NCBI GenBank assembly: GCA_963665375.2
Contig: CAXXUL010000001.1
Location: 733,001-797,000, forward strand
Direction of reading: 5' to 3'
Length of the DNA stretch: 64,000 nucleotides
From: Christensenellaceae bacterium
GTDB taxonomy: Bacteria; Bacillota; Clostridia; Christensenellales; CAG-138
Under the pieces are notes generated by a model. That model saw nothing but the letters and a program-made list of their open reading frames with translations. It was not told where the DNA came from and searched no databases. Positions within the stretch are counted from its first letter, which is position 1, and every line of letters begins with the position of its first letter. Position numbers and translations under genes: made by a program. Below are positions 3,428-54,103 of the stretch, in pieces.

Positions 3428-3829
3428 TTAATCCGCGATTGCAACCTGCTGTTTGATTCGCTCAATCCAGCTTTCGCCAACGCCGAGTATCAGCGCGTCC
3501 ACATCGACCGAAGCCGCCGAAAGCAGCGCGAATGCGGGCGTAGAGAGCTTCTCAACCGTCTTGTCGAGCAGCTTCTGGCGCAGTTGAGCAACCTCCTGCT
3601 GCGTCAGCTTACCGTCCTGATTGGCAGCCTTCAGGTCGCTCACAAGCGTCTGCTGCAGTTCCCCAACAGTAATCCTCGCCGCGCGAATGACTTCCTTCTG
3701 CGCGTCGTTGATGTTCTTGAGGTGTGCGTTCTTCCCCAGTTGCAGCGTCAGGTACGTGCCGAGCACACCGATGAGTGTAATCAGTAGCGTCGCCGCCACC
3801 TGCAAGCCATAGTTTAACAGTAAATCCAT
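3428..3829 (-). CDS. phage holin (LL-H-like family)
   Basis: 133 aa with an N-terminal TM (LQVAATLLITLIGVLGTYLTL) followed by a charged coiled region. It is the last gene of the endolysin cassette. Confidence 0.6.
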   Translation of the reverse strand: MDLLLNYGLQVAATLLITLIGVLGTYLTLQLGKNAHLKNINDAQKEVIRAARITVGELQQTLVSDLKAANQDGKLTQQEVAQLRQKLLDKTVEKLSTPAFALLSAASVDVDALILGVGESWIERIKQQVAIAD

Positions 3830-3857: not shown

Positions 3858-4109
3858 TTAAGTTTCTTCCATCACGCGGATTCGCGCCTCGTGATCGCTG
3901 ATTTGAACCGATTGTTCCCGCGCGTGGTCCCAAATACGTTCGTGCGCGACCCGGTTTGCCGCAGTCAGGCATTCGATGTTCTTCTCCAACTGTTCCATCG
4001 TCGTCGTGAGCTTGCCGATGGCGAGCGTCAGCTTGATCATGGGGGTCACGACCGCCGCAAAGAGTGCAATCAGCGCTGCAATCACGCCGACAACATCCCA
4101 TTCCTGCAT
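3858..4109 (-). CDS. small phage membrane protein (holin-associated/XhlA-like candidate)
   Basis: 83 aa with an N-terminal TM (VVGVIAALIALFAAVVTPMI) plus a coiled coil. It sits between the endolysin and the holin. Confidence 0.5.
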   Translation of the reverse strand: MQEWDVVGVIAALIALFAAVVTPMIKLTLAIGKLTTTMEQLEKNIECLTAANRVAHERIWDHAREQSVQISDHEARIRVMEET

Positions 4110-4121
4110 GTGTTTCTCCTC

Positions 4122-5006
4122 CTAGTACCAACTCGGCCGCAAAAAGTTTGTCCATACACCGAACCGGTCGGTCGTGTGCTTTACAAAATTCCAGCCGCGC
4201 CTACCTGTCAGTTTTGTGAGCTGGCAGCCGTATGCCCCGCCCATCCATTCGATCGCAAGCCCTCCGCCAGCATAGAGGCCAATATGCCCGCTTTTGTGCA
4301 GCAGATCCGCTGGCAGAAGTTCCTCCTGCGCAATCTTTCGCGTCGATCCGCTTGCCGCAAATCCATCCGCGGCCAGATCAAACTTGGGTTTGACAACGCC
4401 CGCGTGCCGTAGCAGCCCTACCACGCCGCCGGAGCAGTCCGCGCCGGTGATTGCGGGGTTATCCTCCACCGCGCGCTCCATCATCTCGCGGCGCCCGCTG
4501 TCGTAAAACTCCGGTTGACGTTTTGCGCCGCTCGCAATTCGCGCAAGCGAAATCACGTTTGGCGATAAGTCGGTGTTGTAGAGGTTCCCGCCGCGAATGT
4601 AAAGGCTCGTCGGGTATTCCCTCGCTTGCGTCGCGTCATAGGCAAACGACAATGCATCAAGAACGATGTTCTTGCGAGCTTCGCTTGCGCCGCTTAACGA
4701 ATTTAGTATCGCTCCCGCCGCCACATCGCCGATCTGCAAAGGGATTCTCGCGCGATCCACCGGTATCGTCTCCGGCGTCTCTTCCGGAAACAGCGCGGCA
4801 TAGGTCAGCGGGCCGACAACGCCATCTATCACCAAACCTTGTTGGTTTTGAAAGGTTTTTACAGCAGCGCGCGTGTCTTTTCCAAACGTGCTGGATCGCA
4901 AGACTGTCATCTGCGCGGGATAACAGCCGAGCGCGAGGAGGCGCTGTTTGACGCGCACCACGTCCTCCCCCGCGCTGCCGTAGCGCAAGGTTCTTGTCAG
5001 CGACAT
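4122..5006 (-). CDS. phage endolysin: PG_binding_1 domain + NlpC/P60-type cysteine peptidase
   Basis: The N-terminal YGSAGEDVVRVKQRLLALG...FGKDTRAAVKTFQNQQGLVIDGVVGPLTYAAL looks like a peptidoglycan-binding repeat. The C-terminal GADCSGGVVGLL...SGHIGLYAGG looks like an NlpC/P60 Cys/His pair. Confidence 0.8.
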   Translation of the reverse strand: MSLTRTLRYGSAGEDVVRVKQRLLALGCYPAQMTVLRSSTFGKDTRAAVKTFQNQQGLVIDGVVGPLTYAALFPEETPETIPVDRARIPLQIGDVAAGAILNSLSGASEARKNIVLDALSFAYDATQAREYPTSLYIRGGNLYNTDLSPNVISLARIASGAKRQPEFYDSGRREMMERAVEDNPAITGADCSGGVVGLLRHAGVVKPKFDLAADGFAASGSTRKIAQEELLPADLLHKSGHIGLYAGGGLAIEWMGGAYGCQLTKLTGRRGWNFVKHTTDRFGVWTNFLRPSWY

Positions 5007-5155: not shown

Positions 5156-5263
5156 TGCACGATTTTTCGCTCTGTGATTATAAGAATTCGGGAAAACACG
5201 AATTATAATAACGCAAAAGACAAGTTTGATGCATATTTCCTCTTGCGAATTAGCATTAATGCA

Positions 5264-33433: not shown

Positions 33434-33475
33434 AAAAAAGCGATGATCCAGCAGATTTCTGCCAAACCATCGCTT
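33434..33475 (-). terminator. rho-independent terminator closing the phage-derived module
   Basis: AGCGATG...CATCGCT hairpin followed by T6 on the minus strand, just downstream of the stop at 33493. Confidence 0.6.
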
Positions 33476-33492
33476 CTTTGCTCCGTTGTGTT

Positions 33493-34275
33493 TTACGGCT
33501 TACTAGGGTATTCTCCCATCAATTGAATATAGCCGGATGTTCCGACCGAAGCGAGCAGCTCCGCGCGATATCTTGCGCCCTGCGTAGTGCTTCCCTCGTA
33601 GACCACTCTGCGTTCTTCTCCACTGAGTGTGGAGAGAAACGCCTCGCAGTTTTCAAGCGTCGTCTTGTTCGGTCCGCTTTGCCCTGATCGGCTGCCGTTT
33701 TTCTTGTATTGCGCATAGAGCGCGAGCGCCGCCGAATACGCCTGATCATAAGAGCTTTGCCGCTGTTGCGCGTTGAATTTCTCTGCTTCCAGCGCGCGGT
33801 CCTGCTCGCTGTCCACTCCGTCCAACACATATTTCGCCAGTGTCGAACCATAGTCCGCCTCCATCGAAGCAATGTCGCTCGCTTCGGCGTTCTGCTGGCG
33901 GTTCTTCACGTCGGTCACATACGTGCTTGCCCCCATGCCGCGCGCAATCGCGTCTGCGTCCAGATTTGCTTTGTTCAGGCGCGTTTGCTGCTGTCTGCCC
34001 GCAATCGCCTGCTCATAGCTTGGTCGCAGCCACGCGGCGACGGAAGAACGGATTTCGTCTTCGCTCTTCGCGTCATACTCCGCTTCTTGCGGAGCAAATC
34101 GCGCATACATTTCGTTGATGTAACTGCTGAGCACGTCCTCGTCGCTCTCGCTTACTTCGTTGCCGCCGCTTCCATAGGGATTGCCAAAGTCAAAACTTGG
34201 CTTGATCTTCGCGCCGCTGTCGTATTGACCGATCAGCAGCGGTTTCTTGGAACCCGGTCCAATGTGAAATGCCAT
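33493..34275 (-). CDS. hypothetical phage virion-associated protein
   Basis: 260 aa, Q/A/E-rich and helical. It is the last gene of the module and has a GGAAGGAG RBS. I recognise no family. Confidence 0.65.
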   Translation of the reverse strand: MAFHIGPGSKKPLLIGQYDSGAKIKPSFDFGNPYGSGGNEVSESDEDVLSSYINEMYARFAPQEAEYDAKSEDEIRSSVAAWLRPSYEQAIAGRQQQTRLNKANLDADAIARGMGASTYVTDVKNRQQNAEASDIASMEADYGSTLAKYVLDGVDSEQDRALEAEKFNAQQRQSSYDQAYSAALALYAQYKKNGSRSGQSGPNKTTLENCEAFLSTLSGEERRVVYEGSTTQGARYRAELLASVGTSGYIQLMGEYPSKP

Positions 34276-34296
34276 TGTGACTCCTTCCTTTCCGCC

Positions 34297-34485
34297 TCAC
34301 TCAATCGCCGCCAGATAATCTTCCAATTCCAGCAGCTTTTGATACAGCGTTTCCATATTTTGATTGAGGTTGCTTTCGTTTTGTGCAACGGAGATGTCAA
34401 AGTCCTCTTGCGATGTGCTCTCGCTTGCTTTGCGGGAAAAATACACCGGAAACAACGCCTGCATACCCGTTTTTTCAAACGCCAT
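34297..34485 (-). CDS. small hypothetical phage protein
   Basis: 62 aa, AGGAGGG RBS, tightly packed in the module. Confidence 0.5.
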   Translation of the reverse strand: MAFEKTGMQALFPVYFSRKASESTSQEDFDISVAQNESNLNQNMETLYQKLLELEDYLAAIE

Positions 34486-34503
34486 TGTCTTTCCCTCCTG
34501 TTT

Positions 34504-35937
34504 TTACAGAACACGTCTCTGCATGTCCATAATCAGCTCGATCCCGCCGTCAATCGTAAAATGCGAACCATTGACGTTTCGAAACACGAGCTGAAACGCT
34601 CTGCCTTCGCCGTTGAGTCCGAGCTCGAGGATCCGCTCGCTCCCGCCCGGCATGAGCCTCTCGTTATAGACCGTGCCGCTCTCCGTCACCGCTTCTACCG
34701 AGAGAATACCGCCGCTGCCGCGCAGATAGAGTTCTTCGAGACGTTTCCCTACTGCTTTGCTGTCGAGATCGGTCATCGGCGTCTTCCAATAGGCGTCGAT
34801 ACGAGCGCCATCATACGTCTCGCCCTCCTCAAAGCGGCAAACAAAGCCGTTTCCGTTCAGCAGATAGAGCGTGCCTCCGGCTGCAAAGAAGCCGCTTGCG
34901 GTGAATCCGCGTCGGAGCATGTATGTGCCGCGCGCGAGGTCATAGATGAGTATGGCGTCGTTGTCTCCCTCGCCCGACTCTTCGCGATGTGCAAAATAGA
35001 GGCGATCTCCGCTTGACGTTGCGATGCAAGCGGTCAGATTTGCGTTTTGCAGCAGCAGTCTTACCTTGTCCGCGTCCGCCTTTCGCTGCACGGTCTGCCC
35101 GTCAAAATAGTACATTCCACCGCTCGTCAGAAAATAGAGAACATCTCCTGCGCGAACGCAGGCCGTGTGAACGGGCTGTCGCATCGTACCGTTGACCGGC
35201 TGGATGCGAAAGTTGCCCGGTCGGTCGCCCAGCAGGCGATAGAGCGAATCCCGCTTGAAAATGAGCAATTGATTACTCAGCGCGAACAGTCCCGTAATTG
35301 GATCGGAATCGGTTCCGACGTCCACAAATCCGCCGCTGACGTTTTCGCTCTCTTCCGCGACCGTCCAGTTTTCGATCGTGCGTGTGTCTCCCGGCGCCTG
35401 ACTGTAATAAAGCCTGCCGGGACTATTCGCGTCTCCCGCGGCAAAGAGACGCGAATAATAGAGCTCCACATAGTTCACCGCAATATCGGAGAGACCCTCC
35501 GTGCTGCCGAATGCTTCCGCTATCTCGCTCGCGCCGTCCCATTTCGCCATGCGCGCCGCGGCACTTGCGATCAAGAGGTATTCGGTGCTGGCGATCTTCA
35601 CGGGAAGAAAATCGTACTGCGCGGCGGCGACCTCCGCGCCAAAGTCGTAGATGCTTTTCCATTCATTCGCCGTCTCATCCAACACGTAGATTTTGCTCCC
35701 CGTCGCGACGATCAACTTTCGTTCGTCCGCGCGTCGCCAGACATAGAGCCGCTTGACAGTCTCCGTTGAAAAAAACGGCGTTTCGCTCTCGCGAACATAC
35801 CCTTTTGCAACGCTGAGTCTGCCGCCCTGCGTATCCATGTTGCAGGCATCCGGGCTCTCGCCGTCGTTCTGGCGGTTCTCGGTCACGTTTTGCGCGATAC
35901 CATAAAATACCGGTATGCGGTATTGCCGCAGCGCCAT
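34504..35937 (-). CDS. hypothetical phage structural protein (beta-propeller-like repeats; possible tail/nozzle component)
   Basis: 477 aa with recurring beta-strand motifs (SKIYVLD, GRLYYSQ, DVLYFLT, DRLYFAH, GTLYLLN). It follows the adaptor-like gene. Confidence 0.65.
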   Translation of the reverse strand: MALRQYRIPVFYGIAQNVTENRQNDGESPDACNMDTQGGRLSVAKGYVRESETPFFSTETVKRLYVWRRADERKLIVATGSKIYVLDETANEWKSIYDFGAEVAAAQYDFLPVKIASTEYLLIASAAARMAKWDGASEIAEAFGSTEGLSDIAVNYVELYYSRLFAAGDANSPGRLYYSQAPGDTRTIENWTVAEESENVSGGFVDVGTDSDPITGLFALSNQLLIFKRDSLYRLLGDRPGNFRIQPVNGTMRQPVHTACVRAGDVLYFLTSGGMYYFDGQTVQRKADADKVRLLLQNANLTACIATSSGDRLYFAHREESGEGDNDAILIYDLARGTYMLRRGFTASGFFAAGGTLYLLNGNGFVCRFEEGETYDGARIDAYWKTPMTDLDSKAVGKRLEELYLRGSGGILSVEAVTESGTVYNERLMPGGSERILELGLNGEGRAFQLVFRNVNGSHFTIDGGIELIMDMQRRVL

Positions 35938-35952
35938 ATGGATTCCCCCTTT

Positions 35953-36495
35953 CTAGCGGTTTTCAATCGCATACGCGTCCAGCTCTCCGCGGTGTGCACG
36001 CATCATGCGCTTTGCCGCATTGTAGAGTTCGAAGCAGGCGCGCGCGGAGGCAATGCTGCTTGCGTCTCCGCTCGCCCGCTCACGCCCCACCGCGTAGCCA
36101 ATCATCGCGCCGTGGCTCCATTCCGGCAGCTCCGGCACATCGGTGTCCACCTTGAGCACCGTCGGCATATAGCGGTACGTCACCAGTACGTCTCCGTCCG
36201 AAACGGCGGGCACGCGTAAGAGCTCTGTGCTTGCCCCGTAGTAAAACGGCAGCCGCGTGCCCGCGCGAGAGAGTGCGATAACCTTCACTACGCTTCTCGG
36301 CAGTTTCGTCAGGTCGAGCGCGCCGTTTGTCAGCGTCAGTGTGTCGCTCCGCCGGGGTTGCAGTTCGCTTGTGAGATCGATCATCGCGTCGTTGAGGTAT
36401 CGCGTGAGCTTGTCGCGCCAGCTTTCCAGGGTTTGCGCGTCGGTTCCGCGGTCGAGCTGCAGCAGAGCTCCTGTGAGCAATTCTTTGAGCGTCAT
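35953..36495 (-). CDS. putative head-tail connector/adaptor protein
   Basis: 180 aa. The call rests on position downstream of the capsid gene and a helical N-terminus typical of gp6-like adaptors. No motif-level proof. Confidence 0.45.
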   Translation of the reverse strand: MTLKELLTGALLQLDRGTDAQTLESWRDKLTRYLNDAMIDLTSELQPRRSDTLTLTNGALDLTKLPRSVVKVIALSRAGTRLPFYYGASTELLRVPAVSDGDVLVTYRYMPTVLKVDTDVPELPEWSHGAMIGYAVGRERASGDASSIASARACFELYNAAKRMMRAHRGELDAYAIENR

Positions 36496-36509
36496 GCATG
36501 CGCCCTCCT

Positions 36510-36788
36510 TTACGATACCTTTTTGCCGCCGCTTTTGCGGTATGCGCGCACATGCGCTTCGCTTTCATAGCGCACCTGTGCGCTCTGGGCAATCAGCGTG
36601 GCGAGACTCTGGGGAATCTCGACCGGTTCACCGGTGCGGATGCGAAAGAAATGCCCGTTGATGCCGCCTTCCCAGTGGGATTCGCCGTTTTCCGGCTGAA
36701 TCGTCACGGTCACTTTATTTTCTTTCGCAAGTGCCTTCCCCGTCTCGGTCGAAATGCCGTCAATCTGCGCTTCGGTCATATACTGCAT
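36510..36788 (-). CDS. small phage head-associated protein (unknown)
   Basis: 92 aa, AAGGAGG RBS, immediately downstream of the capsid gene. Confidence 0.5.
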   Translation of the reverse strand: MQYMTEAQIDGISTETGKALAKENKVTVTIQPENGESHWEGGINGHFFRIRTGEPVEIPQSLATLIAQSAQVRYESEAHVRAYRKSGGKKVS

Positions 36789-36853
36789 GGTTTTATCCTC
36801 CTTAAATTTTAGAGTTGGGGAGAGCCTATCCCGCTCTCCCCTGTGTTCCGTGA

Positions 36854-38065
36854 TTACAGACTCACGCCGTGCTCGATGCGCACGATCCAGAGGTTGTTGA
36901 GAATCTTCGCGGTGTAAGCGGCAACCTTGGCGCCAACCGTCGCGCGCTGATCCAGCGGATCAGAAGCTCCGCCGCTGCCGACGGGTTTCACGATGGTCTG
37001 GAGGCAACCTTCGCCGTCCACGTCGATGATGCCGTATGCATCCGAACCGAAGACGAGCGTCGCGTGGATATCCGTGCCCTTTTTCGTCGTGGCGTCGATG
37101 CTGCCCGCGTTTTCGCTGTACACGATCGTGCCCGCCGCGATCGCGCTGGCAACCGTCGCGCTGAGGGTAACGGTCTTTGCCGCGGCGTTGCAGGAGGCAA
37201 CGGTGTATTCCGTGGCTCCGATCTTAATTTTCGCGCCCGCCGTGAGATACAGCGCCGCGGATTCCGTGATATCGGCGAGGGTAACCACCGCACTGCCCGC
37301 CGAATGCGCGGCAACGGTGGTGTGTACGCTCTGATAAAACACCTTCGCTTCGGTGCTCTCGACGAACACAACGCCAAAGAGTCTGCCGATTTCGCCGGAA
37401 TAGATCTGCTCCATGTCGGAATATTTCGAGACATCCTGCCAAAGCGCGTCGCTCTGCAGATCGTAGGTCGCGTCCGGCGAGCAGATGCAGACAAAGTGCG
37501 GTTTACGAACCGCGCCGCCGTCCACGTTGTTAAACATGCGCGCTTTTGCCTTTTTCAGCGAACGCACCGCTTTGCGAATCTCGGTGACGGTGAGCTTGTC
37601 TCCCGCTTCGAGGGAGAGGCGGTTCGTCTTGCCGTTTGCATACTGCACATTGGTGCCCGCGCACATCGCATCTCGCGTGATCCATTCGACCACGGTGCCG
37701 AGCTGCTCGCCGAGCAGTTCCGTGCTCTCCGTGAGTACGGGATCAAAGCTCGTCAGATCGAGCAGATCGCTGACCTCGACGTATGCGCCGTACTGTTTGA
37801 CTTCGGCCTCAATCTTGCTCTGCGCGAGGCTCTGGCCCGCCGGGGTCACGCCCTCTTCGAGTACCAGCGCGTTTGCGTTCGGCGTAAAGAGCTCGTAGCG
37901 GCGGAATTCCACGCGCTTGCCGCTGTTGCGCGGAATGCTGCGTTTCTGGCCGTAGCTTGCGTGCACGAGCCGCGTCTTGGCGATCTCAAGCAGCGCTTTG
38001 TCGTAAAACGTCTTGTTGCTGTAGGTGGTGCTTGCGGTGTTTACCGTGGTGTTGCTGTTGCTCAT
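36854..38065 (-). CDS. major capsid protein (N4-gp56 family, HK97 fold)
   Basis: 403 aa. The pattern FYDKALLEIAKTRLVHASYGQKRSIPRNSGKRVEFRRYELF...EGVTP...VKQYGAYVEVSDL matches my memory of the N4-gp56 capsid family. Confidence 0.85.
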   Translation of the reverse strand: MSNSNTTVNTASTTYSNKTFYDKALLEIAKTRLVHASYGQKRSIPRNSGKRVEFRRYELFTPNANALVLEEGVTPAGQSLAQSKIEAEVKQYGAYVEVSDLLDLTSFDPVLTESTELLGEQLGTVVEWITRDAMCAGTNVQYANGKTNRLSLEAGDKLTVTEIRKAVRSLKKAKARMFNNVDGGAVRKPHFVCICSPDATYDLQSDALWQDVSKYSDMEQIYSGEIGRLFGVVFVESTEAKVFYQSVHTTVAAHSAGSAVVTLADITESAALYLTAGAKIKIGATEYTVASCNAAAKTVTLSATVASAIAAGTIVYSENAGSIDATTKKGTDIHATLVFGSDAYGIIDVDGEGCLQTIVKPVGSGGASDPLDQRATVGAKVAAYTAKILNNLWIVRIEHGVSL

Positions 38066-38086
38066 GTTGTACTTTCCTCCTGTTGT

Positions 38087-38530
38087 TTACAGTCTGGTTT
38101 TGCCGCCGTCGCGGGCGGTCTTCTTCATCTGCTGCATGAGTGCGCGGAATGCTTCCGAGCTCATGCCGTGATAATTGGTTGCGGCCGGTGCCGCGCTGCC
38201 TCCGCGCGTGCTCTTGGGCAAAGCACCGCGCTCGCGAACACGGGCACTCACGCGCTCCATGGCGTTGTTCTCGGCTTCCTCCGCGCGCTGTTCTGCAGCG
38301 TAGATGCGGATGCCCGCCTCCGCGCCGTATTCGCGCATCAGGTTCGCCAGTTCCGGGTCTTTCGCCGCCGACTCAAGGTCAAAACCTTCCGGCAGCTTGC
38401 CTTGCTGCACCAGAACGGAGATTTCATCTACCAGCGCTTCAAATTCCGGATCGTTTTGCGCCGCGTTCTGCGTTCTTGCGCCGTCTGCGCTCATCAGGCG
38501 CTGCTGCATCGTGTTTTTGATGGATTTCAT
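38087..38530 (-). CDS. putative scaffolding protein
   Basis: 147 aa, helical and charged. It lies between the portal and capsid genes and has an ATGA overlap with the portal stop. Confidence 0.55.
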   Translation of the reverse strand: MKSIKNTMQQRLMSADGARTQNAAQNDPEFEALVDEISVLVQQGKLPEGFDLESAAKDPELANLMREYGAEAGIRIYAAEQRAEEAENNAMERVSARVRERGALPKSTRGGSAAPAATNYHGMSSEAFRALMQQMKKTARDGGKTRL

Positions 38531-40179
38531 GCGTTCCTCCCTATTTTGCCCGCGCCTTGCGGGAGAGTCTGTTGTTGCTGTTGTTTTGCGAGCGCTTCCA
38601 CTTTCTCGCTCTGTTCTTTGAGTTGCTTGAGTAGTTGATCCTTACCCTCAAACACCATGAGTTCCACGGCCTGCGCCGGCGTCATCATGCCGCTTTGCAG
38701 CATACGGAGTGCCAACTCGTTCTGGCTCATCGCGGAGTACTTCGTCTCCTGCTGCGCCTTGACCGAGATGTAGAACTCAATCGGCAGCGCGACGTTTCCC
38801 GGCGCTTTCTTCACGAGCATCGTGCTTTCGAAGGTGCGTTCCTTCGTCTCGCCGTTGATGGTCACGTTTACGCGGCGGGTAAAGAAGTTGAACTCGCGCT
38901 CGACTTCGATCTCTAGGCGCACCGCGTCCCGAAAGCTTTCGTGCAGCAGCCGCGCCATCATACGAGCGCGCTTATTGCTCATCTCCTGCATAGCGGCGAT
39001 GGCGCTGGCCGCGGTTACGCCGCCTGCCGTTGTGCCACGGGAGAAATCGTTTGCCCCGCTCTCCTGCTTGATGCTCTCGCGAATGCTGTCGATGTAGCCG
39101 ATGATGTAGGCGGGCAGCGGCGGTGTGGAAAACCAGGTGACCCCGTTGAGGCTTTCGCCGCGGTGAACCTCCCGGCTCCAATCGCGCAGGTCCTCGGTGT
39201 CAAATCCGCTGGCTTCGGTCACGAGCAGTTTGTTGTGGCTCGCCATCAGCGCGTTTTTCAGCACGATCTGGTCGAGTTTGTCCGCGTATTTCTGCTGCGT
39301 TTCAAACATGTCCACGAGACCGAGACCGAGGCAGGAGCCCTTTCGCACGAACATCGGGGTGAGTAAAAACGGATACATGCCGTGTTCGAAGAGACCGTCC
39401 GGTTTCGTGTCCCTGCTATCCGAGAGCACCTGGTTTCCAGCAATCTGCGCCATGTGTACGCTCGATCGCTCCGTCTCCGCGTCAAATTCCCGCCACCAGT
39501 ATTCGAGGAAGAGCATCGCTCCGTTCCGGTCTCCGTGCAGGATTCCGTCCTCTACCGCGTCCGGCGTACCGAACGCATCCGCCGTGAGAAACGGCGCAGC
39601 TTTGGGAAAGCGGGATTCGATGTATTCGCGCGTCTTGAGCGAAATCTTGAAGATCGCACGGCTTTCCTGCGCGTCCGTCGTCAGCGGGTCAAAGAGAATG
39701 CTCCTCGCGTCCACGTGGCGGATAAACGCGCCACCAAGTCCTGCGTTGAGCGTGTTGTCGTAGCCGACCTCCTGCACGCAGTAGCCGCCGACCAGCAGGT
39801 CGTGTACGAGCTTGCGGTATTCCTTCACGTAACCATCCGCGTCGTGGTTCTGGCGGATGATGGCTTCGATTACGTGCGCAATCTCGCTGTCCTTCGGGCT
39901 TTCCGGCAGGATGACCGCCTCCGGCACGCGATCCAGCAGCTCGGCCTTGATGTTCTCCACCGTACTCTGGATAATCGGCGTCACCGGTCTCGGCTCGTTG
40001 CGGTCAAGCATCGGTACATCGTGCCAGTGATCGCCGCGATACATCCGTTCGCAATTTTCCAGCCGTTGCCATTCGGAGACATATGCCCCGCGAAACTCCC
40101 GAAAGAGTCCGTAGGCCTTTTCGCAGAGCGCGCGCTTCTCCTGCCCCTGGTTTGATCCTTTCATATGAGATGTGTTCAT
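38527..40179 (-). CDS. phage portal protein
   Basis: 550 aa, directly downstream of TerL, with an acidic helical C-terminus. The call rests on size and synteny. Confidence 0.7.
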   Translation of the reverse strand: MNTSHMKGSNQGQEKRALCEKAYGLFREFRGAYVSEWQRLENCERMYRGDHWHDVPMLDRNEPRPVTPIIQSTVENIKAELLDRVPEAVILPESPKDSEIAHVIEAIIRQNHDADGYVKEYRKLVHDLLVGGYCVQEVGYDNTLNAGLGGAFIRHVDARSILFDPLTTDAQESRAIFKISLKTREYIESRFPKAAPFLTADAFGTPDAVEDGILHGDRNGAMLFLEYWWREFDAETERSSVHMAQIAGNQVLSDSRDTKPDGLFEHGMYPFLLTPMFVRKGSCLGLGLVDMFETQQKYADKLDQIVLKNALMASHNKLLVTEASGFDTEDLRDWSREVHRGESLNGVTWFSTPPLPAYIIGYIDSIRESIKQESGANDFSRGTTAGGVTAASAIAAMQEMSNKRARMMARLLHESFRDAVRLEIEVEREFNFFTRRVNVTINGETKERTFESTMLVKKAPGNVALPIEFYISVKAQQETKYSAMSQNELALRMLQSGMMTPAQAVELMVFEGKDQLLKQLKEQSEKVEALAKQQQQQTLPQGAGKIGRNA

Positions 40180-40209
40180 TGGTTGTGTCCTTCCTTGGGG
40201 ATACCCCGT

Positions 40210-41556
40210 TTACAGTCTGGTGAATCCGTCCGCATGCGGTTCACCGGATGCAAACGGGTCATAGGCGCGCGCCTTCTTCTTCTTCGGCTCGCTTGCGGCG
40301 GATGGCCTCGACATCAGCCCGTAGCGCAGCGCTTCCGGCGCGTGATCCTCGTAGTGTGAGCCGACGTCCTCCACAAAATGCTCGTCGAAGGTCAGCGCGG
40401 GCAGCGTTCGGATCAGGTTTTCGCAGGTGCGAAAGATCAGCAGCTTCGGCTGCCCGTCGTCTGCGTCGCTCAGATATTCGCGGACACGCTGCCAGCCGGG
40501 GATTCTGGCGTTGTCCGCGCGGATGAGCGGCACGCCGCCGTGGGCGAACACCTCCGCAATGCTCATCCCGCCGATGTCTCCGGCGGCGCTCATGCCACGG
40601 TTTTGCCAGGCGTCCGGCGAGGCAGTGGTGTATGCGATCTTCTCTTCTCCCGTCATCTGACGGATGCGCCGTGCCGTCTCACTGGACAGCACCTGGCGTT
40701 CATAATATTCGCGATACGCATACACCCGACCTGTGGGCGAAACGGCAAACCACAGCACCGCGCAGGGATCGTTGTATCCCCAGTCCATGGCGCGAAATCT
40801 CCGCCACGACTTCGGGATCTCAAACGGCTCTGTCACGTGCCGCCCTCTCGAAAACTCGCTGAAGTACTGCCCCGCCAGCACATCCCAGTCCCCGTCCAGA
40901 TGGGCGCGCCTCAGCGGCTCCGGCAGGTTTTCGAGTGTGATCACATAGGACTTGTCCCGCATCAGGACCGGATTGTCCGTCACGCGCGCCGGAATGAAGA
41001 CGTAATCCTCGCTTCTCTCGCTTCCGCGATAGCGTCGGTCGATAAAGAGGCGCTTGACCCATGCGTGCCCTACGCCGCCGGGATTGCATGTGTAGTACAT
41101 ACGCGGCTTAAAGTCCGTTCTCACCGAGCGGTTGCAGGTCGAAATGAACTGCATCTGGCTCTCGGTGAACTGGGTGGCTTCCTCCAATCCGATCACGTCG
41201 TATTCCTGCCCCTGATAGCGGTATACGTCCTGCTCATTGTCGCAATAACCGAGTTTGATGCGGCTGCCGTTCGGAAACGTGAATACGCGTTGCGTTTGGT
41301 TGTAATCAACAAACCCTGATAGCTCCGTTTGCAGCGCCCGCACATGGTTTTCGGTCAGCTCCGACAGCGTTCTTCGGAGCAGAAGGAGTTGAAGGTTCGG
41401 ATAGCGAAGGGCGAGCAGCACGAACTTTCTTCGCATGGCCCAGCTTTTACCGCCGCCGCGCGCGCCGCCGTATGCGGTGTGCCGTGCCCTGCTTTCGAAG
41501 AATGCCCGCTGGCGTGGATTTGGATACCCCTTTAATTGGAATTCCACGTCACTCAC
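40210..41556 (-). CDS. phage terminase large subunit
   Basis: The Walker A-like motif is YGGARGGGKSW and the Walker B-like motif is VIGLEEAT. The C-terminal nuclease region is MDWGYNDP... Confidence 0.9.
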   Translation of the reverse strand: MSDVEFQLKGYPNPRQRAFFESRARHTAYGGARGGGKSWAMRRKFVLLALRYPNLQLLLLRRTLSELTENHVRALQTELSGFVDYNQTQRVFTFPNGSRIKLGYCDNEQDVYRYQGQEYDVIGLEEATQFTESQMQFISTCNRSVRTDFKPRMYYTCNPGGVGHAWVKRLFIDRRYRGSERSEDYVFIPARVTDNPVLMRDKSYVITLENLPEPLRRAHLDGDWDVLAGQYFSEFSRGRHVTEPFEIPKSWRRFRAMDWGYNDPCAVLWFAVSPTGRVYAYREYYERQVLSSETARRIRQMTGEEKIAYTTASPDAWQNRGMSAAGDIGGMSIAEVFAHGGVPLIRADNARIPGWQRVREYLSDADDGQPKLLIFRTCENLIRTLPALTFDEHFVEDVGSHYEDHAPEALRYGLMSRPSAASEPKKKKARAYDPFASGEPHADGFTRL

Positions 41557-41947
41557 CCCAGCCTTCCTTATCCTCCAGCACGATCACGATCCTGCGGGCT
41601 TCCTCGTCCGGCGGCAGTTTTTCGCCGGTGCCGAGTTCTTCCAGCAGTTTCGCGGCAACGCTGTACTGGAGTTCCCCCAGTAACGCGTGCTCTACGATGT
41701 AGCGACCAATCCGTCGGAGTGCGCTAGCGTACAGCTTGCACTCCTTGCTCTTTCCTCCGCTTTTGCCTTTTGCGAGGATCTCGCCCTGCGGTTTTGCGAG
41801 GTGCTCGCTCAGGCCTGCAAGCGTATACGGCGTTTGCCGGATGGTCACGCTTCCGTTTTTGAGTGTGACACGCTCCGCCGTCGCATCGCATGCGGCAAAA
41901 TACGCTTCCATTTTGCTTTCGATTGAATTATGATTGGCCGACTCCAT
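41549..41947 (-). CDS. putative terminase small subunit
   Basis: 132 aa. A PYTLAGLSEHL segment resembles the Terminase_4 small-subunit HTH. It has an 8-nt overlap with TerL. The start at 41947 has an AAAGGAG RBS. Confidence 0.55.
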   Translation of the reverse strand: MESANHNSIESKMEAYFAACDATAERVTLKNGSVTIRQTPYTLAGLSEHLAKPQGEILAKGKSGGKSKECKLYASALRRIGRYIVEHALLGELQYSVAAKLLEELGTGEKLPPDEEARRIVIVLEDKEGWGE

Positions 41948-42055
41948 TCGTTCGTGCTCCTTTCTTGCTTGGCGGCGTTTTTCGAGGCTGTTTCCTGCCG
42001 CCAAAGATATCCTAATGCAGAAAACCACTAAAAAATTACGACAGTTTTGGGTTTC

Positions 42056-42074
42056 GCGAATTCTTATAATTCGC
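42056..42074. promoter_or_regulatory. AT-rich palindrome GCGAATT-cttat-AATTCGC upstream of terS, sharing a 14-mer with the region upstream of the lysis cassette
   Basis: It is a perfect 7-bp inverted repeat. CGAATTCTTATAAT (42057-42070) is identical to the reverse complement of 5177-5190. Confidence 0.5.
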
Positions 42075-42273
42075 CCTTTCGCTGATTCCGATAATTCTTT
42101 TTTGCATCCAAAACATAAAAAGGCGCCACCCCGGCGCGTGCGTTAGTCACTTTAGGCATCATTTTATCTATGGTATGATAGCAACGTATCATAAAGATTT
42201 GTGTATGGATGCATTTCATCCATCATTTGTCCCGTGCCATTTGATGCGGCGCGGCCTTGAAAGGACTGATCAT

Positions 42274-47572: not shown

Positions 47573-47688
47573 GTTAATATTATAGTAAGCGCAATTTAAA
47601 ACGTCAATCAAAGGCGAGTAATTTCGAGATATCGAGAGATTTTATGTCGTATTTTACAATAATCGCCCCCCATCGCTCGCCGTGTTCA

Positions 47689-47717
47689 TTGCAAGTGGCT
47701 TCAAATTCATGTAAAAT
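47689..47717 (+). promoter_or_regulatory. sigma-A-type promoter for tRNA-Asn
   Basis: TTGCAA, 17 nt, TAAAAT, ending 13 nt before the tRNA 5' end. Confidence 0.6.
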
Positions 47718-47730
47718 TTCCGAGTAACGT

Positions 47731-47806
47731 TCCTCCTTAGCTCAGTTGGTAGAGCATGCGGCTGTTAACCGCAGTGTCGTTGGTTCGAGTCCAACAGGGG
47801 GAGCCA
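47731..47806 (+). tRNA. tRNA-Asn (anticodon GTT), CCA-encoded
   Basis: Folded by hand. Acceptor TCCTCCT/AGGGGGA, D arm GCTC..GAGC, anticodon stem TGCGG/CCGCA with loop CTGTTAA, T arm GTTGG-TTCGAGT-CCAAC, and 3' GCCA. Confidence 0.9.
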
Positions 47807-47810
47807 GCTA

Positions 47811-47882
47811 AGTACTCACGAAATGATACAATTCGTGGGTACTTTTTTTATGCAAAAAGCCCAGACTTTCTGGGCTTTTTGC
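47811..47882 (+). terminator. two tandem rho-independent terminators after the tRNA
   Basis: AGTACTCACGAA...TTCGTGGGTACT followed by T6, then GCAAAAAGCCCAG-acttt-CTGGGCTTTTTGC. Confidence 0.75.
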
Positions 47883-48038
47883 ATATTGTAGTTATTATTG
47901 TTCGTGAAGAAATTGGCTGTTTGTACCCCGCGCTTTATATGATAGGAAAATTTGCACCCACCCCCAAGGAAACGCGCAGGAGTACGGGGAAACGCGCGAG
48001 AGTACAATTAACAAGAGATTACACTCGAATAATCCTGA

Positions 48039-49021
48039 TTATTCAGAGACGACAACACGAAACATACCTTGCGTTGTCGTTTTAATGAATAGTTCCGTCG
48101 TCCCAAGCAACTTTAATATATCAGAACTAATTGAAGATGTTGAGCAACCTGGTTGAACTATTACTACTTCGAACTGAATTTTTGACGAACGAGATTTTTC
48201 TTTAAAGTATGAAAGTTCTTTAATTGTACCCTTCAGAAATCTAGAAGCCCCTTCCTTCTCCCAAATTTCATTACGATGTTTTAGATCACGATAAAGGTGA
48301 GGAAGGCCAAGATGCTTTATTGCGATACTTTTTTGCGCCTGTCCGCATAACGTGTAGAAATTTCTAATGTCGCTAGAGATTTTCCCATTAATTGCTCCCT
48401 TGCAATGTACAAGACATAATTTTATAGTCTGCCCATCTTCTTCCTTTAGGCAAACCAAATCTCCTGCTTCCCCGCAACCATCATCATTAAATACGACATC
48501 AAAATCATCTGCGACTTTTTGAAAGCACATATATTGGATTGTATTTGTGTCATGGCTCTTACCTAGTGATTCTCTGTTTAGACTGATTGCAGAAAAATCC
48601 CAGATCTCAATTTGATCTTTGGGTAGCTCTCCTGCATTTATATTTGTCGGAATATGATAGCAATTATAAGAATAGGTTCCATCAGCATATCTTATTATCG
48701 GGGGATCTATAACAAAATACTCATCTAGTGAAATTTTTACTCCGTTCGCTTTCACAAAGCTAACATCGGGTCCCGAAAGTTTCTTGTAAAGAAATCCTTG
48801 CTGTGATATCTCACTGATTACGAAGCGAACTAATGAAGAAATCTCTTCACACGAGATAGAAATATCAACATCACCATTTTTCTCAACGTTTGATATAGCT
48901 AAATCTGTCAAATAAAGCGGTACTTCAAGCGAGCCAAACAAAATACATAACCGATCGCTAATAGACGATTGAACCTGTTCCCCCCACTGTATTCCAATTG
49001 GATATGAATTGTGTGGAGTTT
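48039..49021 (-). pseudogene. 5'-truncated gene of unknown function with a PD-(D/E)xK / Mrr-like nuclease-type motif, cut by an IS end
   Basis: The first 27 codons or so of ORF 48039-49100 are a translation of the IS terminal repeat (MDYSLGDTS...). The genuine part starts near 49016. It contains GEAGDLVCL...KLCLVHCKG...IRNFYTLCGQAQKS. Confidence 0.6.
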
Positions 49022-49178
49022 TGAGGTGTCCCCCAAAGAGTAGTCCACTTTGAGTGAGAAAAAATCGATGCTCTGAGGTGTCCCCCAAAGAGTAGTCCAC
49101 TTTGAGTGAGAAAAAATCGATGCTTTTGAGGTGTCCCCCAAAGAGTAGTCCACTTTGAGTGAGAAAAAATCGATGCTC
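49022..49178. repeat. three tandem copies (about 52-53 bp) of the IS terminal inverted repeat region
   Basis: TGAGGTGTCCCCCAAAGAGTAGTCCACTTTGAGTGAGAAAAAATCGATGCT starts at 49022, 49074 and 49127. The third copy continues into the IS body. Confidence 0.9.
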
Positions 49179-50015
49179 AGACGGCTTCCGAGCCCGTTTT
49201 TAGGGCAAATTCAGCCGGTGTTAGGTATGTTAGTGCGCTGTGCGGACGGAACTCGTTGTAGTCCCTTCGCCAGCGCTCTATTTTGTCTCTGGCATCCTCC
49301 AGAGACATAAACCAGTTCATGTTTAGGCATTCATCCCGGAAGCTGCCGTTGAACGATTCGATATGCGGGTTGTCTGTCGGCGTGCCGGGGCGGGAGTAAT
49401 CGAGTTTGACTTTGTTGAAGTACGCCCAGGCATCCAGCGCCCGAGAGATGAACTCAGGCCCGTTATCGACCTTGATTCGCAGAGGCAGCCCGCGGGCTGC
49501 CTTGAGTTTCTCCAGCTCGTCGCAGACCTGTTCGCCCTTGATCGATTTGTCCACGCAGATGGCTAAACTTTCCCGGCTGAACGTATCCAGCACCGTCAGC
49601 GCCCGGAACCGCTTACCATTGTACAATTGATCGGACACGAAGTCCATACTCCAGCATTCGTTCACCGCAGATGCCAATCCCTTCGTAGGGGCCCTCGAAA
49701 CGCTGATTTTCTTTCGGTTTGACGGTTTTCTCAGGTTCAATCCTTCCTGCCTGTAGAGCCTGTAGACCCGCTTATGGTTGATTTTCCACCCTTCACGCAG
49801 CAACAGGACATGGATCCGCCGATATCCATATCGCTTTCGCACGGAGGCGATTTCTTTGATTCTCATCCGTAAAAAGGCCTGCTCGTCGCGGGTTGGCTGC
49901 CTCCGATGCCATCCCCGGTTGATTCGCAATACCGTACAGCTTTTGCGTTCGCTTGCTTGAAAGCGTTCTTGCAGATAACGTACGGCATCCCGCTTCTCAG
50001 CAGGCCTTAGAATTT
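49177..50015 (-). CDS. IS3-family transposase OrfB (DDE), expressed as OrfAB by -1 frameshift
   Basis: The catalytic region (WSMDFV...LDTFSRE...KVDNGPEF...SRPGTPTDNPHIESFN) is DDE integrase-like. The frame extends upstream to the A7 at 50013-50019. Confidence 0.85.
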
Positions 50016-50282: not shown

Positions 50283-50350
50283 CTTTTCCTTTTTCTTAGT
50301 TTATCATTTTCTCTCTTTTTAGGTGGACTACTTTTTCGGGGAGCAGGTCA

Positions 50351-51525: not shown

Positions 51526-51773
51526 TTATTCTCTCCATTACCAGTTGGATTTTGAAAATGCTGTGTAAACTGAATATTGAATACTCTGCAACCATATGAA
51601 TGAAAAATGTCACTGTTAGAAAAAGGTATTACAAAGTGTATCCGCGACAAAATGGATTAAGCAGGCGTTTTTCATAAATAAGTAATTTATCTTTGAGTAT
51701 TCCATAGTCTAGTAATCAACTTGACAGAATTATTCCCATCTCTTTTTTGTATTTTCCTGCTGGTATTCTCTCC

Positions 51774-52109: not shown

Positions 52110-52187
52110 AGAAACCATGTGTAGTAATGGATTTTCTTAGATACTAATCAATGACGTTTTCATACTTGATATTGTTGTCATCAAGTG

Positions 52188-54088: not shown

Positions 54089-54103
54089 GAGCTTTCATGA
54101 CTA

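What the first reader, a model, noticed from the sequence alone, without database searches (positions are those of the whole stretch)
33434..42075. Stand-alone, intact-looking phage head/neck module with no integrase, replication, lysogeny or lysis genes: candidate domesticated particle locus (GTA-like or capsid-forming-satellite-like)
Ten co-directional genes are packed into about 8.5 kb: TerS, TerL, portal, scaffold, N4-gp56-type capsid, a 92-aa protein, an adaptor-like 180-aa protein, a 477-aa repeat protein, a 62-aa protein and a 260-aa protein. Each has a canonical Shine-Dalgarno sequence and several stop/start codons overlap. I saw no frameshifts or internal stops. The unit ends in a terminator at 33434-33475. 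Ordinary chromosomal genes lie on both sides (lipid kinase, CvpA; lipoprotein, ferredoxin, ricT-holB). Its GC content looks the same as the host's. A decaying prophage would normally show broken genes and leftover integrase or repressor fragments, and none are present here. The only lysis genes in the window sit 28 kb away on the same strand, and their upstream region shares a sequence element with this module (see the finding at 5176). This layout, with a compact structural cluster and separate lysis genes, resembles gene transfer agents. A head-only gene content also resembles capsid-forming phage-inducible islands. I know of no podovirus-like (N4-type capsid) element of either kind in Clostridia. 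This is a hypothesis.
Basis: partly seen in the sequence, partly recalled or inferred. Interest (0 to 1): 0.8.

Follow-up and report, generated by a model that had tools for sequence, protein, structure and literature searches.

The report
Domesticated podovirus-type gene transfer agent locus
A ten-gene phage head-and-short-tail operon has stayed intact at one chromosomal site in about 30 Christensenellaceae-like species, and it is most likely a gene transfer agent like the one described in Faecalibacterium in 2026, so it is a good find but not unprecedented.

Summary
Ten co-directional, intact, tightly packed genes lie at 33493-41947 (- strand): TerS, TerL, P22/SU10-type portal, a 147-aa scaffold-like protein, an N4-gp56-type capsid protein, a 92-aa protein, an SU10-type adaptor, a 477-aa protein, a 62-aa protein and a 260-aa helical protein. 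A strong terminator closes the operon and housekeeping genes lie on both sides.

New results:
- The 477-aa protein is a podovirus tail nozzle (AlphaFold pLDDT 92; Foldseek top hits include P22 gp10 and T7 gp12), so the operon encodes a head plus a minimal short tail.
- The same ten genes sit between the same housekeeping genes in about 30 species, and they diverge in step with those flanks (Spearman 0.98).
- All ten genes are under purifying selection (dN/dS 0.04-0.38).
- Related ~39-kb podophages exist. They carry the regulatory, larger structural and giant genes that this operon lacks.
- A three-gene lysis cassette 28 kb away shares an 11-14-nt upstream box with the operon.

A 2026 paper describes a collinear ten-gene operon, FpGTA I, in Faecalibacterium. 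That element makes about 40-nm particles carrying about 8.5 kb of random host DNA. The same paper saw GTA-like packaging in Christensenellaceae but found no gene cluster there.

Verdict: a new member of a known kind. Particle production and DNA transfer are untested in this lineage.

The parts
41549..41947 (-). Small terminase-like protein, 132 aa. The first-stage ORF ran from GTG 42028.
   Evidence: Weak GP3_package hit, E=2e-4, below the Pfam cutoff. No PHROG hit. ATG 41947 has an AAGGAG SD. No detectable similarity to the phrog_309 TerS of the phage relative L061. Highest dN/dS in the operon, 0.26-0.38.
40210..41556 (-). Large terminase, 448 aa
   Evidence: Terminase_3 and Terminase_6N; phrog_979 E=2e-48. 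73-95% identical in the same-site relatives.
38527..40179 (-). Portal, P22/SU10 type, 550 aa
   Evidence: P22_portal 83 bits, SU10_portal 53 bits, phrog_156 E=1e-46.
38087..38530 (-). 147-aa protein in the scaffold position
   Evidence: No family, and no Prp domain even at E<=1. Aligns at 30-37% identity with part of the 257-299-aa proteins at the same position in related phages.
36854..38065 (-). Major capsid protein, N4-gp56 family, 403 aa
   Evidence: TIGR04387 E=5e-76; phrog_1357 E=8e-66. The most conserved gene of the locus, 64-97% identity across 80 loci.
36510..36788 (-). 92-aa protein, function unknown
   Evidence: No family hit. Conserved at this position in 62 of 80 loci.
35953..36495 (-). 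Head-to-tail adaptor, 180 aa
   Evidence: Pfam SU10_adaptor E=3.7e-10, 41 bits against a cutoff of 27.
34504..35937 (-). Tail nozzle (tail hub), 477 aa, beta-propeller
   Evidence: AlphaFold2 pLDDT 92.2, pTM 0.91. Foldseek top hits: Pa223 tail (TM 0.80, E=2e-22), VP1, P22 gp10 (8eap_D), T7 gp12, SU10 and Sf6 gp8. phrog_3287 E=1.5e-17.
34297..34485 (-). 62-aa protein, function unknown
   Evidence: No family hit. Conserved after the nozzle gene in 70 of 80 loci.
33493..34275 (-). 260-aa all-helical protein; a tail needle/plug or ejection protein is a guess
   Evidence: No family or PDB profile hit. Conserved core LRPxYDxAI...LDADAxxRGMGxSTYVTD. Single-sequence AF2 model is helical but low confidence, pLDDT 45. 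Homologues in other groups begin with a PG_binding-like segment.
33434..33475 (-). Intrinsic terminator closing the operon
   Evidence: 22-bp hairpin, -30.8 kcal/mol, z = -9.15, followed by T6.
42060..42095 (-). Two copies of the box ATTATMRGAAT upstream of TerS (42085-42095 and 42060-42070); a degenerate third copy lies nearer the gene
   Evidence: 4 matches in 64 kb against 0.15 expected, and 3 of the 4 lie upstream of this operon or of the lysis cassette. The box is position-specific upstream of TerS in about 15 related species.
42123..42137 (-). Small hairpin plus T run on the operon strand, preceded by the conserved AAGTGACnnACGCAC box
   Evidence: Terminator-like site. The stem and T run are kept with different loops in most same-site relatives. 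Fold energy alone is not exceptional. Role unknown.
4122..5006 (-). Endolysin-like protein, 294 aa, first gene of the separate lysis cassette
   Evidence: PG_binding_1 E=2e-14. The C-terminal part has a Cys/His NlpC/P60-like region related to the NLPC_P60 endolysins of relatives. 42% identical homologue in a related viral contig, L098.
3858..4109 (-). 83-aa protein with one transmembrane helix, holin-like
   Evidence: Sequence. Conserved after the endolysin gene in L029, 49% identity.
3428..3829 (-). 133-aa protein with one transmembrane helix, holin-like
   Evidence: Sequence. Conserved in L029, 60% identity.
5177..5190 (+). Copy of the operon's upstream box (ATTATAAGAATTCG) ahead of the lysis cassette, in inverted orientation
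   Evidence: Exact 14-mer shared with 42057-42070. A hairpin plus T run follows it before the endolysin gene.

Best explanation
The operon is a domesticated, vertically inherited derivative of a ~39-kb P22/SU10-like podophage of Clostridia. It is a gene transfer agent-like 'viriform', and it is probably the Christensenellaceae counterpart of FpGTA operon I of Faecalibacterium.

Proposed working:
1. An unidentified host signal acts on the repeated ATTATMRGAAT boxes and turns on the ten-gene operon in a subpopulation of cells.
2. Capsid protein and the 147-aa scaffold-like protein assemble a small procapsid on the portal.
3. TerS and TerL fill the procapsid by headful with stretches of host chromosome that are shorter than the 8.5-kb operon. 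This is expected from the 4-9 kb packaged in related gut Clostridia.
4. Adaptor, nozzle and probably the 62-aa and 260-aa proteins close the portal as a minimal short tail.
5. The separate endolysin plus two-holin cassette, which carries the same upstream box, lyses the producer cell and releases the particles.
6. Receptor-binding fibres, if any, are encoded outside this window, as in FpGTA locus II and in the relatives where fibre genes follow the 260-aa gene.

Shown here: the gene content and protein folds, the lack of phage autonomy genes, the fixed chromosomal site, co-divergence with the host, purifying selection, and the shared cis element.

Inferred: expression, particle formation, random packaging and DNA transfer.
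For: (1) Gene content. The operon has packaging, head and minimal-tail genes. It has no replication, lysogeny, integration or lysis gene.

(2) Distribution. About 120 relatives were found in a collection with one genome per species. In 29-31 of the 80 loci fetched, the ten genes lie between the same housekeeping genes.

(3) Co-divergence. Mean module identity tracks mean flank identity almost one to one, from 91/90% down to 59/58% (Spearman 0.98, n=27).

(4) Selection. dN/dS is 0.04-0.38 for every gene, like the flanks. 251 of 252 gene instances are intact.

(5) Phage relatives show what was lost. L061 and the 37-41-kb IMG/VR contigs carry an HNH endonuclease, an ArpU-like regulator, a standard TerS, a scaffold twice as long, a nozzle of 571-657 aa and, in L061, a 1999-aa protein.

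(6) Multi-locus layouts in other lineages. Some lack the terminase genes, or the portal and terminase genes, next to the capsid gene. Some have BppU_N and collagen-like fibre genes, a holin and an endolysin directly after the 260-aa gene. All are embedded among housekeeping genes.

(7) Link to the lysis cassette. The operon and the cassette share the box in the window (4 matches against 0.15 expected). In L029 the homologous cassette lies 4 kb downstream and shares a 12-mer with the operon's upstream region.

(8) Literature. FpGTA I has ten ORFs in the same order, with an N4-gp56 capsid, an adaptor and a nozzle matched to PDB entry 8eap. It makes about 40-nm particles carrying 8.4-8.9 kb of host DNA. 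GTA-like packaging of 4.1-7.1 kb was recorded for Christensenellaceae MAGs without a gene cluster being found.

(9) GC content. The module is about 5 points above the host. A GC bias in GTA genes is the subject of PMC7360931; only its title and abstract were read.
Against: - There are no expression, particle or packaged-DNA data for this organism.
- No receptor-binding or fibre gene was found in the 64-kb window.
- No regulator was identified.
- Sequence homology with the FpGTA proteins could not be tested, because no Faecalibacterium sequence was reachable.
- The FpGTA gene between portal and capsid is annotated as Prp-like, and the 147-aa protein here has no Prp domain.
- Capsid proteins of genuine phages are as close to the window's (58-67%) as those of the other standalone groups are. 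Phages are interleaved with those groups in an unbootstrapped NJ tree. The history may therefore include several domestications or exchange with phages.
- dS is near saturation for many gene pairs, so the omega values are approximate.
Confidence: 0.7

Rival explanations
1. The locus is a domesticated particle with a job other than gene transfer, or one that depends on an incoming phage. For example, it could be a chromosomally fixed capsid-and-nozzle set that is switched on by infection with a related podophage. It would then borrow that phage's fibres, package host DNA and spoil the phage burst, acting as a defence or decoy. Alternatively it could be a particle released mainly as a source of extracellular DNA.
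For: No fibre or receptor-binding gene lies in the window. Closely related active-looking podophages exist, one of them in the same MAG as a standalone module (L027 and L061). No regulator gene lies in the locus. The Faecalibacterium paper itself leaves open whether the particles deliver DNA.
Against: The strict upstream box was not found ahead of the packaging genes of the phage relatives checked. In some lineages fibre, holin and endolysin genes directly follow the module, which argues for self-sufficiency. The element's own lysis cassette carries the same box. FpGTA particles appear spontaneously in pure culture without a phage.
Confidence: 0.15
2. The locus is a capsid-forming phage satellite (cf-PICI-like): a mobile island that makes its own small capsids and hijacks helper-phage tails.
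For: The locus carries its own terminase, portal, capsid and connector genes, and no long tail. A 2026 preprint notes that candidate GTA clusters in gut Clostridia can be confused with such satellites.
Against: No integrase, attachment-site repeat, replication or regulatory module lies within 10 kb on either side in about 30 species. The chromosomal site is the same in all of them, and the module has co-diverged with the flanks, which is the opposite of a mobile island. The locus encodes its own adaptor and nozzle.
Confidence: 0.08
3. The locus is a decaying remnant of a prophage with no present function.
For: It carries only about a fifth of the gene content of the related 39-kb phages.
Against: All ten genes are intact in about 30 species that are separated by saturated synonymous divergence. 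dN/dS is 0.04-0.38 and gene lengths are nearly invariant; the nozzle is exactly 477 aa in most species. A neutral remnant would have been broken up long ago.
Confidence: 0.03

Closest known systems
FpGTA of Faecalibacterium prausnitzii: operon I (10 ORFs, about 10 kb) plus operon II (PMC12946183, Nat Commun 2026)
   Same: Both have ten co-directional ORFs in the order TerS, TerL, portal, one ORF, N4-gp56-family capsid, one ORF, adaptor, nozzle, two ORFs. The FpGTA nozzle was matched to PDB 8eap, which is rank 4 in the Foldseek search here. In both, the lysis genes sit in a separate locus. Both hosts are anaerobic Clostridia, and neither element has integrase or replication genes.
   Different: The hosts belong to different orders. 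The operon here is 8.5 kb against 9.6-10.5 kb. The ORF between portal and capsid is annotated as Prp-like in FpGTA and has no Prp domain here. No fibre/RBP locus was found in this window. Sequence homology was not tested. Particles and packaging have been shown only for FpGTA.
RcGTA-type gene transfer agents of Alphaproteobacteria
   Same: Both are phage-derived head-tail clusters without autonomy genes. Both are inherited vertically across a large clade under purifying selection, and both place lysis and accessory genes at other loci. GC content is raised relative to the host here; a GC bias in GTA genes is the subject of PMC7360931, of which only title and abstract were read.
   Different: RcGTA is siphovirus-like, with an HK97-type head, a tape measure and a long tail. 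It is unrelated in sequence and is regulated by CtrA/GafA. The element here is podovirus-like and its regulator is unknown.
Pagevirus (Bacillus phage Page) and Paenibacillus phage API480, plus uncultured 37-41-kb podophage contigs (L061, L100, L104, L114)
   Same: The capsid, portal, TerL, adaptor, nozzle, 62-aa and 260-aa homologues are shared and lie in the same order.
   Different: The phages also carry replication, regulation and lysis genes, tail spike or fibre genes and a 1600-2000-aa virion protein. Their scaffold and nozzle are longer, and they are not fixed at a host locus.
Capsid-forming PICIs (cf-PICI)
   Same: They have a compact packaging-plus-head gene set and make small capsids.
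   Different: cf-PICIs are mobile. They have integrase, replication and regulatory genes, depend on a helper phage, and use its long tails. None of these features is seen here.
PBSX of Bacillus subtilis
   Same: It is a defective phage-like element of a Gram-positive host that packages random host DNA (about 13 kb).
   Different: PBSX is myovirus-like, is a complete prophage-sized cluster with its own regulators, and acts as a killing particle.

Membership tests
Gene transfer agent / viriform (general definition) | Phage-derived structural and packaging genes in the chromosome, without replication, integration or lysogeny genes | tested here: met
   ten packaging, head and short-tail genes, with housekeeping genes on both sides.
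Gene transfer agent / viriform (general definition) | Vertical inheritance with the host lineage at a conserved locus, under purifying selection | tested here: met
   Same flanks in 29-31 species. Spearman 0.98 between module and flank identity. dN/dS 0.04-0.38.
Gene transfer agent / viriform (general definition) | Particles package more or less random host DNA in pieces too short to carry the element's own genes | not testable with these tools
   Indirect only. 4.1-7.1-kb GTA-like reads were reported for Christensenellaceae MAGs, and 8.4-8.9 kb for FpGTA. The operon plus lysis cassette needs more than 10 kb spread over 38 kb.
Gene transfer agent / viriform (general definition) | Production under host control, with release by lysis genes encoded elsewhere | tested here: inconclusive
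   An endolysin plus two-holin cassette lies 28 kb away and carries the same upstream box. The cassette is linked to the module in L029. No regulator was identified.
Gene transfer agent / viriform (general definition) | Delivery of packaged DNA to recipient cells | not testable with these tools
   No data. No receptor-binding gene was found in the window.
FpGTA family (Faecalibacterium) | Ten-ORF operon: TerS, TerL, portal, X, N4-gp56 capsid, X, adaptor, nozzle, X, X | tested here: met
   The order of RCH50853-50844, compared.
FpGTA family (Faecalibacterium) | Sequence homology of the ten proteins to RCH50844-RCH50853 | not testable with these tools
   No Faecalibacterium sequence could be retrieved. 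The only link is a shared NCBIfam name for the capsid protein and the same structural match for the nozzle.
FpGTA family (Faecalibacterium) | Prp-like protein encoded between portal and capsid | tested here: not met
   Nine homologues of the 147-aa protein, phage ones included, gave no Prp hit at E<=1.
FpGTA family (Faecalibacterium) | Second locus with baseplate/fibre/RBP genes plus holin and endolysin | tested here: inconclusive
   A lysis cassette is present in the window, but no fibre gene is. Relatives of group D have BppU_N and collagen-like fibre genes, a holin and an endolysin directly after the module.
Capsid-forming PICI | Integrase, attachment sites, replication and regulatory module; variable presence | tested here: not met
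   None within 10 kb on either side in about 30 species, and the site is fixed.
Intact or decaying prophage | A complete phage gene set, or broken genes and leftovers of it, at the site | tested here: not met
   No relative has extra phage genes at the site. 251 of 252 gene instances are intact.

The most novel reading that the evidence does not exclude
This operon would be the long-sought gene cluster behind the GTA-like packaging seen in gut Christensenellaceae. It would belong to an ancient podovirus-derived GTA family that spans several families or orders of Clostridia, with FpGTA as one branch, making it the Gram-positive counterpart of the alphaproteobacterial RcGTA clade. The family would have a multi-locus architecture (head-tail operon, lysis cassette, fibre locus) tied together by a dedicated cis-regulatory box and an undiscovered host regulator.
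Probability: 0.45. Interest if true: 0.75.

Novelty: new member of a known kind. Interest (0 to 1): 0.62.

Why it matters
Experimentally studied gene transfer agents are few, and most are in Alphaproteobacteria. The 2026 Faecalibacterium work showed that small podovirus-like particles move large amounts of chromosomal DNA in the human gut. It saw the same packaging signature in Christensenellaceae but could not name the genes.

This locus is a concrete candidate for those genes. It comes with evolutionary evidence that the published work did not provide:
- a fixed chromosomal site in about 30 species;
- co-divergence with the host;
- purifying selection on every gene;
- phage relatives that show what was discarded.

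It also supplies a testable regulatory handle: a box shared by the structural operon and the lysis cassette. In addition, it shows that public viral catalogues list these host loci as viruses.

If confirmed, it would extend GTA-mediated gene flow to a heritable, health-associated gut family. It would also give a second, independent large clade in which to study how a phage becomes a host organelle.

Tried and rejected
Searches that found nothing useful:
- Megablast of the module against 50,697 phage records gave no match.
- Rfam on 30-46 kb gave nothing above noise.
- PDB sequence and profile searches for the adaptor, the 477-aa and the 260-aa proteins gave nothing significant.
- Pfam, PHROGs and NCBIfam gave no family for the 147-, 92-, 62- and 260-aa proteins.

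Three attempts to reach a Faecalibacterium FpGTA sequence failed:
- Cluster look-up of ten 50%-identity capsid representatives.
- A profile search built from distant capsid representatives, which returned mostly ~40-kb phage contigs and no Faecalibacterium name.
- Exact look-up of proteins from two IMG/VR contigs whose identifiers carry genome-type number prefixes.

Other dead ends:
- The window's own capsid protein is not on record in the contig index.
- Single-sequence AlphaFold of the 260-aa protein gave pLDDT 45 and is unusable.
- A first greedy longest-ORF gene caller failed on this GC-rich DNA. It was replaced by a codon-usage model.
- A first regular expression for the upstream box was wrong and was corrected.

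Ideas rejected:
- A phage late activator drives the operon: the strict box is absent upstream of the packaging genes in the phage relatives.
- The low-GC island at 47-64 kb belongs to the element: it is an IS-flanked metabolic island.
- The conserved neighbours f384 and f374 are structural genes: both look like membrane proteins.

Full report
**Observation.** None has an internal stop, and 98% of the span is coding. Every start is preceded by a GGAGG-like ribosome-binding site. TerS/TerL overlap by 8 nt and portal/147-aa by 4 nt.

Profile searches gave these assignments:
- Large terminase: Terminase_3/6N; phrog_979 E=2e-48.
- P22/SU10-type portal.
- Major capsid protein of the N4-gp56 family: TIGR04387 E=5e-76; phrog_1357 E=8e-66.
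- SU10-type adaptor: 41 bits against a cutoff of 27.
- First gene: only a weak P22-gp3-like hit.

The first gene most likely starts at ATG 41947, behind an AAGGAG, and so encodes 132 aa rather than 159. The operon ends in a 22-bp hairpin with a T run (-30.8 kcal/mol, z = -9.2). The flanks are ordinary chromosomal genes. GC content is not identical to the host's: 58.3% against 53.4%.

**The unknown ORFs.** An AlphaFold2 model of the 477-aa protein, built on 44 homologues, reached pLDDT 92 and pTM 0.91. It is an all-beta propeller. Foldseek against the PDB returned podovirus tail nozzles or hubs as the first 30 hits. These include Pa223 (TM 0.80), VP1, P22 gp10 (8eap_D), T7 gp12, SU10 and Sf6 gp8. 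With the adaptor, the operon therefore encodes a minimal short tail, not only a head and neck.

The gene order (TerS, TerL, portal, scaffold position, coat, adaptor, hub, then small proteins) is the P22 order from established knowledge. By that analogy the 260-aa protein could be a needle/plug or an ejection protein. It is predicted all-helical. Nothing supports this beyond position: there is no family or PDB profile hit, and the single-sequence model has pLDDT 45. Some homologues begin with a peptidoglycan-binding-like segment. The 147-, 92- and 62-aa proteins remain unassigned.

**Relatives.** The capsid protein has about 4000 database homologues. They form a continuum from 99% to 70% identity, and many sit on megabase contigs named Christensenellaceae, Christensenella or Clostridia. 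A scan of a collection with one genome per species found about 120 loci, of which 80 were fetched with 10-kb flanks. tblastn, a codon-model gene caller and protein clustering sort them into five layouts:
- **Group A** (29-31 species, including the window). The ten genes lie between lipoprotein/ferredoxin/PSP1/holB/decarboxylase on one side and DAGK/384-aa/CvpA/374-aa on the other.
- **Group B.** The same ten genes with other flanks.
- **Group C.** Portal to the 260-aa gene, with no terminase genes adjacent.
- **Group D.** The 147-aa gene to the 260-aa gene, followed by BppU_N and collagen-like fibre genes, a Phage_holin_4_1 holin and an NlpC/P60-SH3 endolysin. No portal or terminase genes are adjacent.
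- **Group E.** A rearranged version of group D.

The neighbours in groups B-D are housekeeping genes: YchF, SpoIID, CspB, a PBP, KsgA, IleS, an ABC transporter and OAD-beta. No locus of groups A-E has an integrase or replication gene next to the module.

**Inheritance and selection.** Within group A, the mean identity of the module proteins to the window tracks the mean identity of three flanking proteins almost one to one, from 91/90% down to 59/58% (Spearman 0.98, n=27). Nei-Gojobori dN/dS against nine genomes gave these ranges:
- Capsid and portal: 0.05-0.13.
- TerL: 0.11-0.18.
- Adaptor and nozzle: 0.05-0.22.
- The 147-aa protein: 0.09-0.24.
- The 260-aa protein: 0.12-0.19.
- TerS: 0.26-0.38.
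- Flanking genes, for comparison: 0.03-0.28.

dS is often above 1, so the ratios are approximate, but dN alone tells the same story. Of 252 gene instances, only one (TerL in L007) looks truncated.

**What the ancestor looked like.** The nearest cultured phages are Bacillus Pagevirus and Paenibacillus API480, at under 40% capsid identity. Both are 40-45-kb podophages with 18-25-kb structural modules. Closer uncultured relatives exist. L061 comes from the same MAG as the group A locus L027. It has an HNH endonuclease, an ArpU-like regulator and a standard phrog_309 TerS. It also has a 299-aa scaffold, a 642-aa nozzle and a 1999-aa protein after the 260-aa homologue. IMG/VR holds 37-41-kb contigs with 58-67% capsid identity and the same gene order.

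Compared with these phages, the module has a different TerS with no detectable similarity, a scaffold half as long and a shorter nozzle. It has none of the other phage genes. An NJ tree of capsid, adaptor and nozzle makes group A monophyletic and sister to group B. Phage-like genomes are interleaved with groups C-E (no bootstrap). One or several domestications are both possible.

**Lysis cassette and cis element.** At 3428-5006, on the same strand, lies a PG_binding_1/NlpC-like endolysin gene followed by two genes for single-transmembrane proteins. Housekeeping genes surround them. The three-gene unit recurs 4 kb downstream of the module in L029 at 57, 49 and 60% identity. The endolysin has a 42% homologue in a related viral contig.

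Upstream of TerS there are two or three copies of the box ATTATMRGAAT. The 14-mer ATTATAAGAATTCG recurs, inverted, upstream of the endolysin gene. The box occurs 4 times in 64 kb against 0.15 expected, and 3 of the 4 are at these two places. It is position-specific upstream of TerS in about 15 group A species. In some lineages both copies are replaced by the reverse complement, ATTCCGATAA. In L029 the two upstream regions share TTTTATCGGAAA. This points to co-regulation, but the factor is unknown. A conserved AAGTGACnnACGCAC box, whose 3' half forms a hairpin followed by a T run, lies further upstream. Its role is unexplained.

**Literature.** PMC12946183 (Nat Commun 2026; preprint November 2024) describes FpGTA of Faecalibacterium in these terms:
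- Operon I has ten ORFs: a TerS without an obvious DNA-binding domain, TerL, portal, a Prp-annotated protein, an N4-gp56 capsid, an adaptor (7sp4), a nozzle (8eap) and an abundant 'TolA'-annotated last protein.
- Operon II lies 125 kb away and holds baseplate, fibre, RBP, holin and endolysin genes.
- The particles are about 40 nm across and carry 8.4-8.9 kb of host DNA.
- The authors call it the first GTA-like element of podovirus-like morphology.
- They also record GTA-like packaging for Christensenellaceae MAGs, with peaks at 4.1/7.1 kb and 6.3 kb, without identifying a gene cluster.

A July 2026 preprint reports similar two-cluster candidates in other gut Clostridia and warns of confusion with capsid-forming satellites. 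The window's operon is collinear with FpGTA I, and its nozzle matches the same PDB entry. Direct sequence homology could not be tested. The 147-aa protein has no Prp domain.

**Mechanism (inferred).** A host signal acting on the shared box would switch on the operon and the lysis cassette in some cells. A small capsid would assemble on the portal. TerS/TerL would fill it by headful with host DNA shorter than the element. Adaptor, nozzle and the small proteins would seal it. Endolysin and holins would release it. Fibres would come from a locus outside the window.

The gene set, the folds, the conservation, the selection and the cis element are shown. Expression, packaging and transfer are not. 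I put 0.7 on a selectively maintained, DNA-packaging, GTA-like particle locus. The rivals are:
- A domesticated particle with another role, or one that depends on a phage: 0.15.
- A capsid-forming satellite: 0.08.
- A dead prophage remnant: 0.03.

**Novelty.** The kind is known since 2024-2026, so this is a new member of a known kind. The added value is fourfold: a candidate gene cluster for Christensenellaceae, the deep-conservation evidence, the phage comparison, and the regulatory box.

Noticed in passing
window 47600-64000: A low-GC island (38-42% against 53%) begins next to tRNA-Asn (47731-47806). It holds an IS3-type transposase (49177-49929, plus a 91-aa ORF at 50007-50282). The rest are metabolic genes: two fumarate-lyase-type lyases, a TctA/TctC transporter, an MR/MLE enolase, an M24 peptidase, a GntR/FCD regulator and a proline racemase. 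It is probably a horizontally acquired catabolic island and is unrelated to the module.
   Followed up: partly
window 42100-42160 (- strand); aligned: A conserved AAGTGACnnACGCAC box lies between the divergent lipoprotein gene and the operon's upstream boxes. Its 3' half forms the stem of a small hairpin followed by a T run. The stem is kept with different loops in most same-site relatives. It could be an insulating terminator, an attenuator or an operator.
   Followed up: partly
L027 and L061 (both from MAG CAZIQO01): One genome carries both the standalone module at the standard site and a phage-like relative. The relative has 66% capsid identity to the window and carries an HNH endonuclease, an ArpU-like regulator, a standard TerS and a 1999-aa protein.
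   Followed up: partly
window 33493-41947 compared with L003-L020: Synonymous divergence of the capsid, portal, TerL and adaptor genes (dS 0.2-0.9) is clearly lower than that of the neighbouring housekeeping genes (1-2) for the same genome pairs. The module is also 5 GC points above the host. This suggests constraint on synonymous sites or codon optimisation.
   Followed up: no
L038, L044, L058, L064, L067, L072, L073 (homologues of the 260-aa gene): In groups C and D the homologue of the 260-aa protein begins with a segment that looks like a PG_binding_1 domain (VKEYQRQLGVxxDGIWGP). Group C has an extra roughly 210-aa gene with a similar N-terminus between the 62-aa and 260-aa genes.
   Followed up: no
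L083-L089, L117, L132 (IMG/VR contigs): IMG/VR lists host chromosome fragments that carry the module as viral contigs. L117 also includes the PSP1, holB and decarboxylase genes. Such loci therefore inflate virus catalogues.
   Followed up: partly
L021 5900 and 14700-18000; L025 likewise: In two Christensenellaceae chromosomes, 2.5-3.3 kb of extra genes sit at both borders of the module, between it and its usual neighbours. They were not annotated.
   Followed up: no
L052, L054, L055, L057, L060, L075 (gene just upstream of TerS/TerL, opposite strand): Group B modules are preceded by a 400-500-aa secreted protein with a weak Peptidase_M15_4 hit. The putative FpGTA endolysin is also annotated as peptidase M15. 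A link to lysis was not examined.
   Followed up: no
window 48663-48673: The fourth copy of ATTATAAGAAT in the window lies inside the low-GC island, where an AT-rich match is more likely by chance.
   Followed up: no
L007 (TerL), L009 (TerL), L017 (477-aa gene): The gene caller split these genes in three MAGs. In the tblastn coverage test only the L007 TerL fell below 85% in one segment. Frameshifts in the MAG assemblies were not told apart from real disruptions.
   Followed up: no
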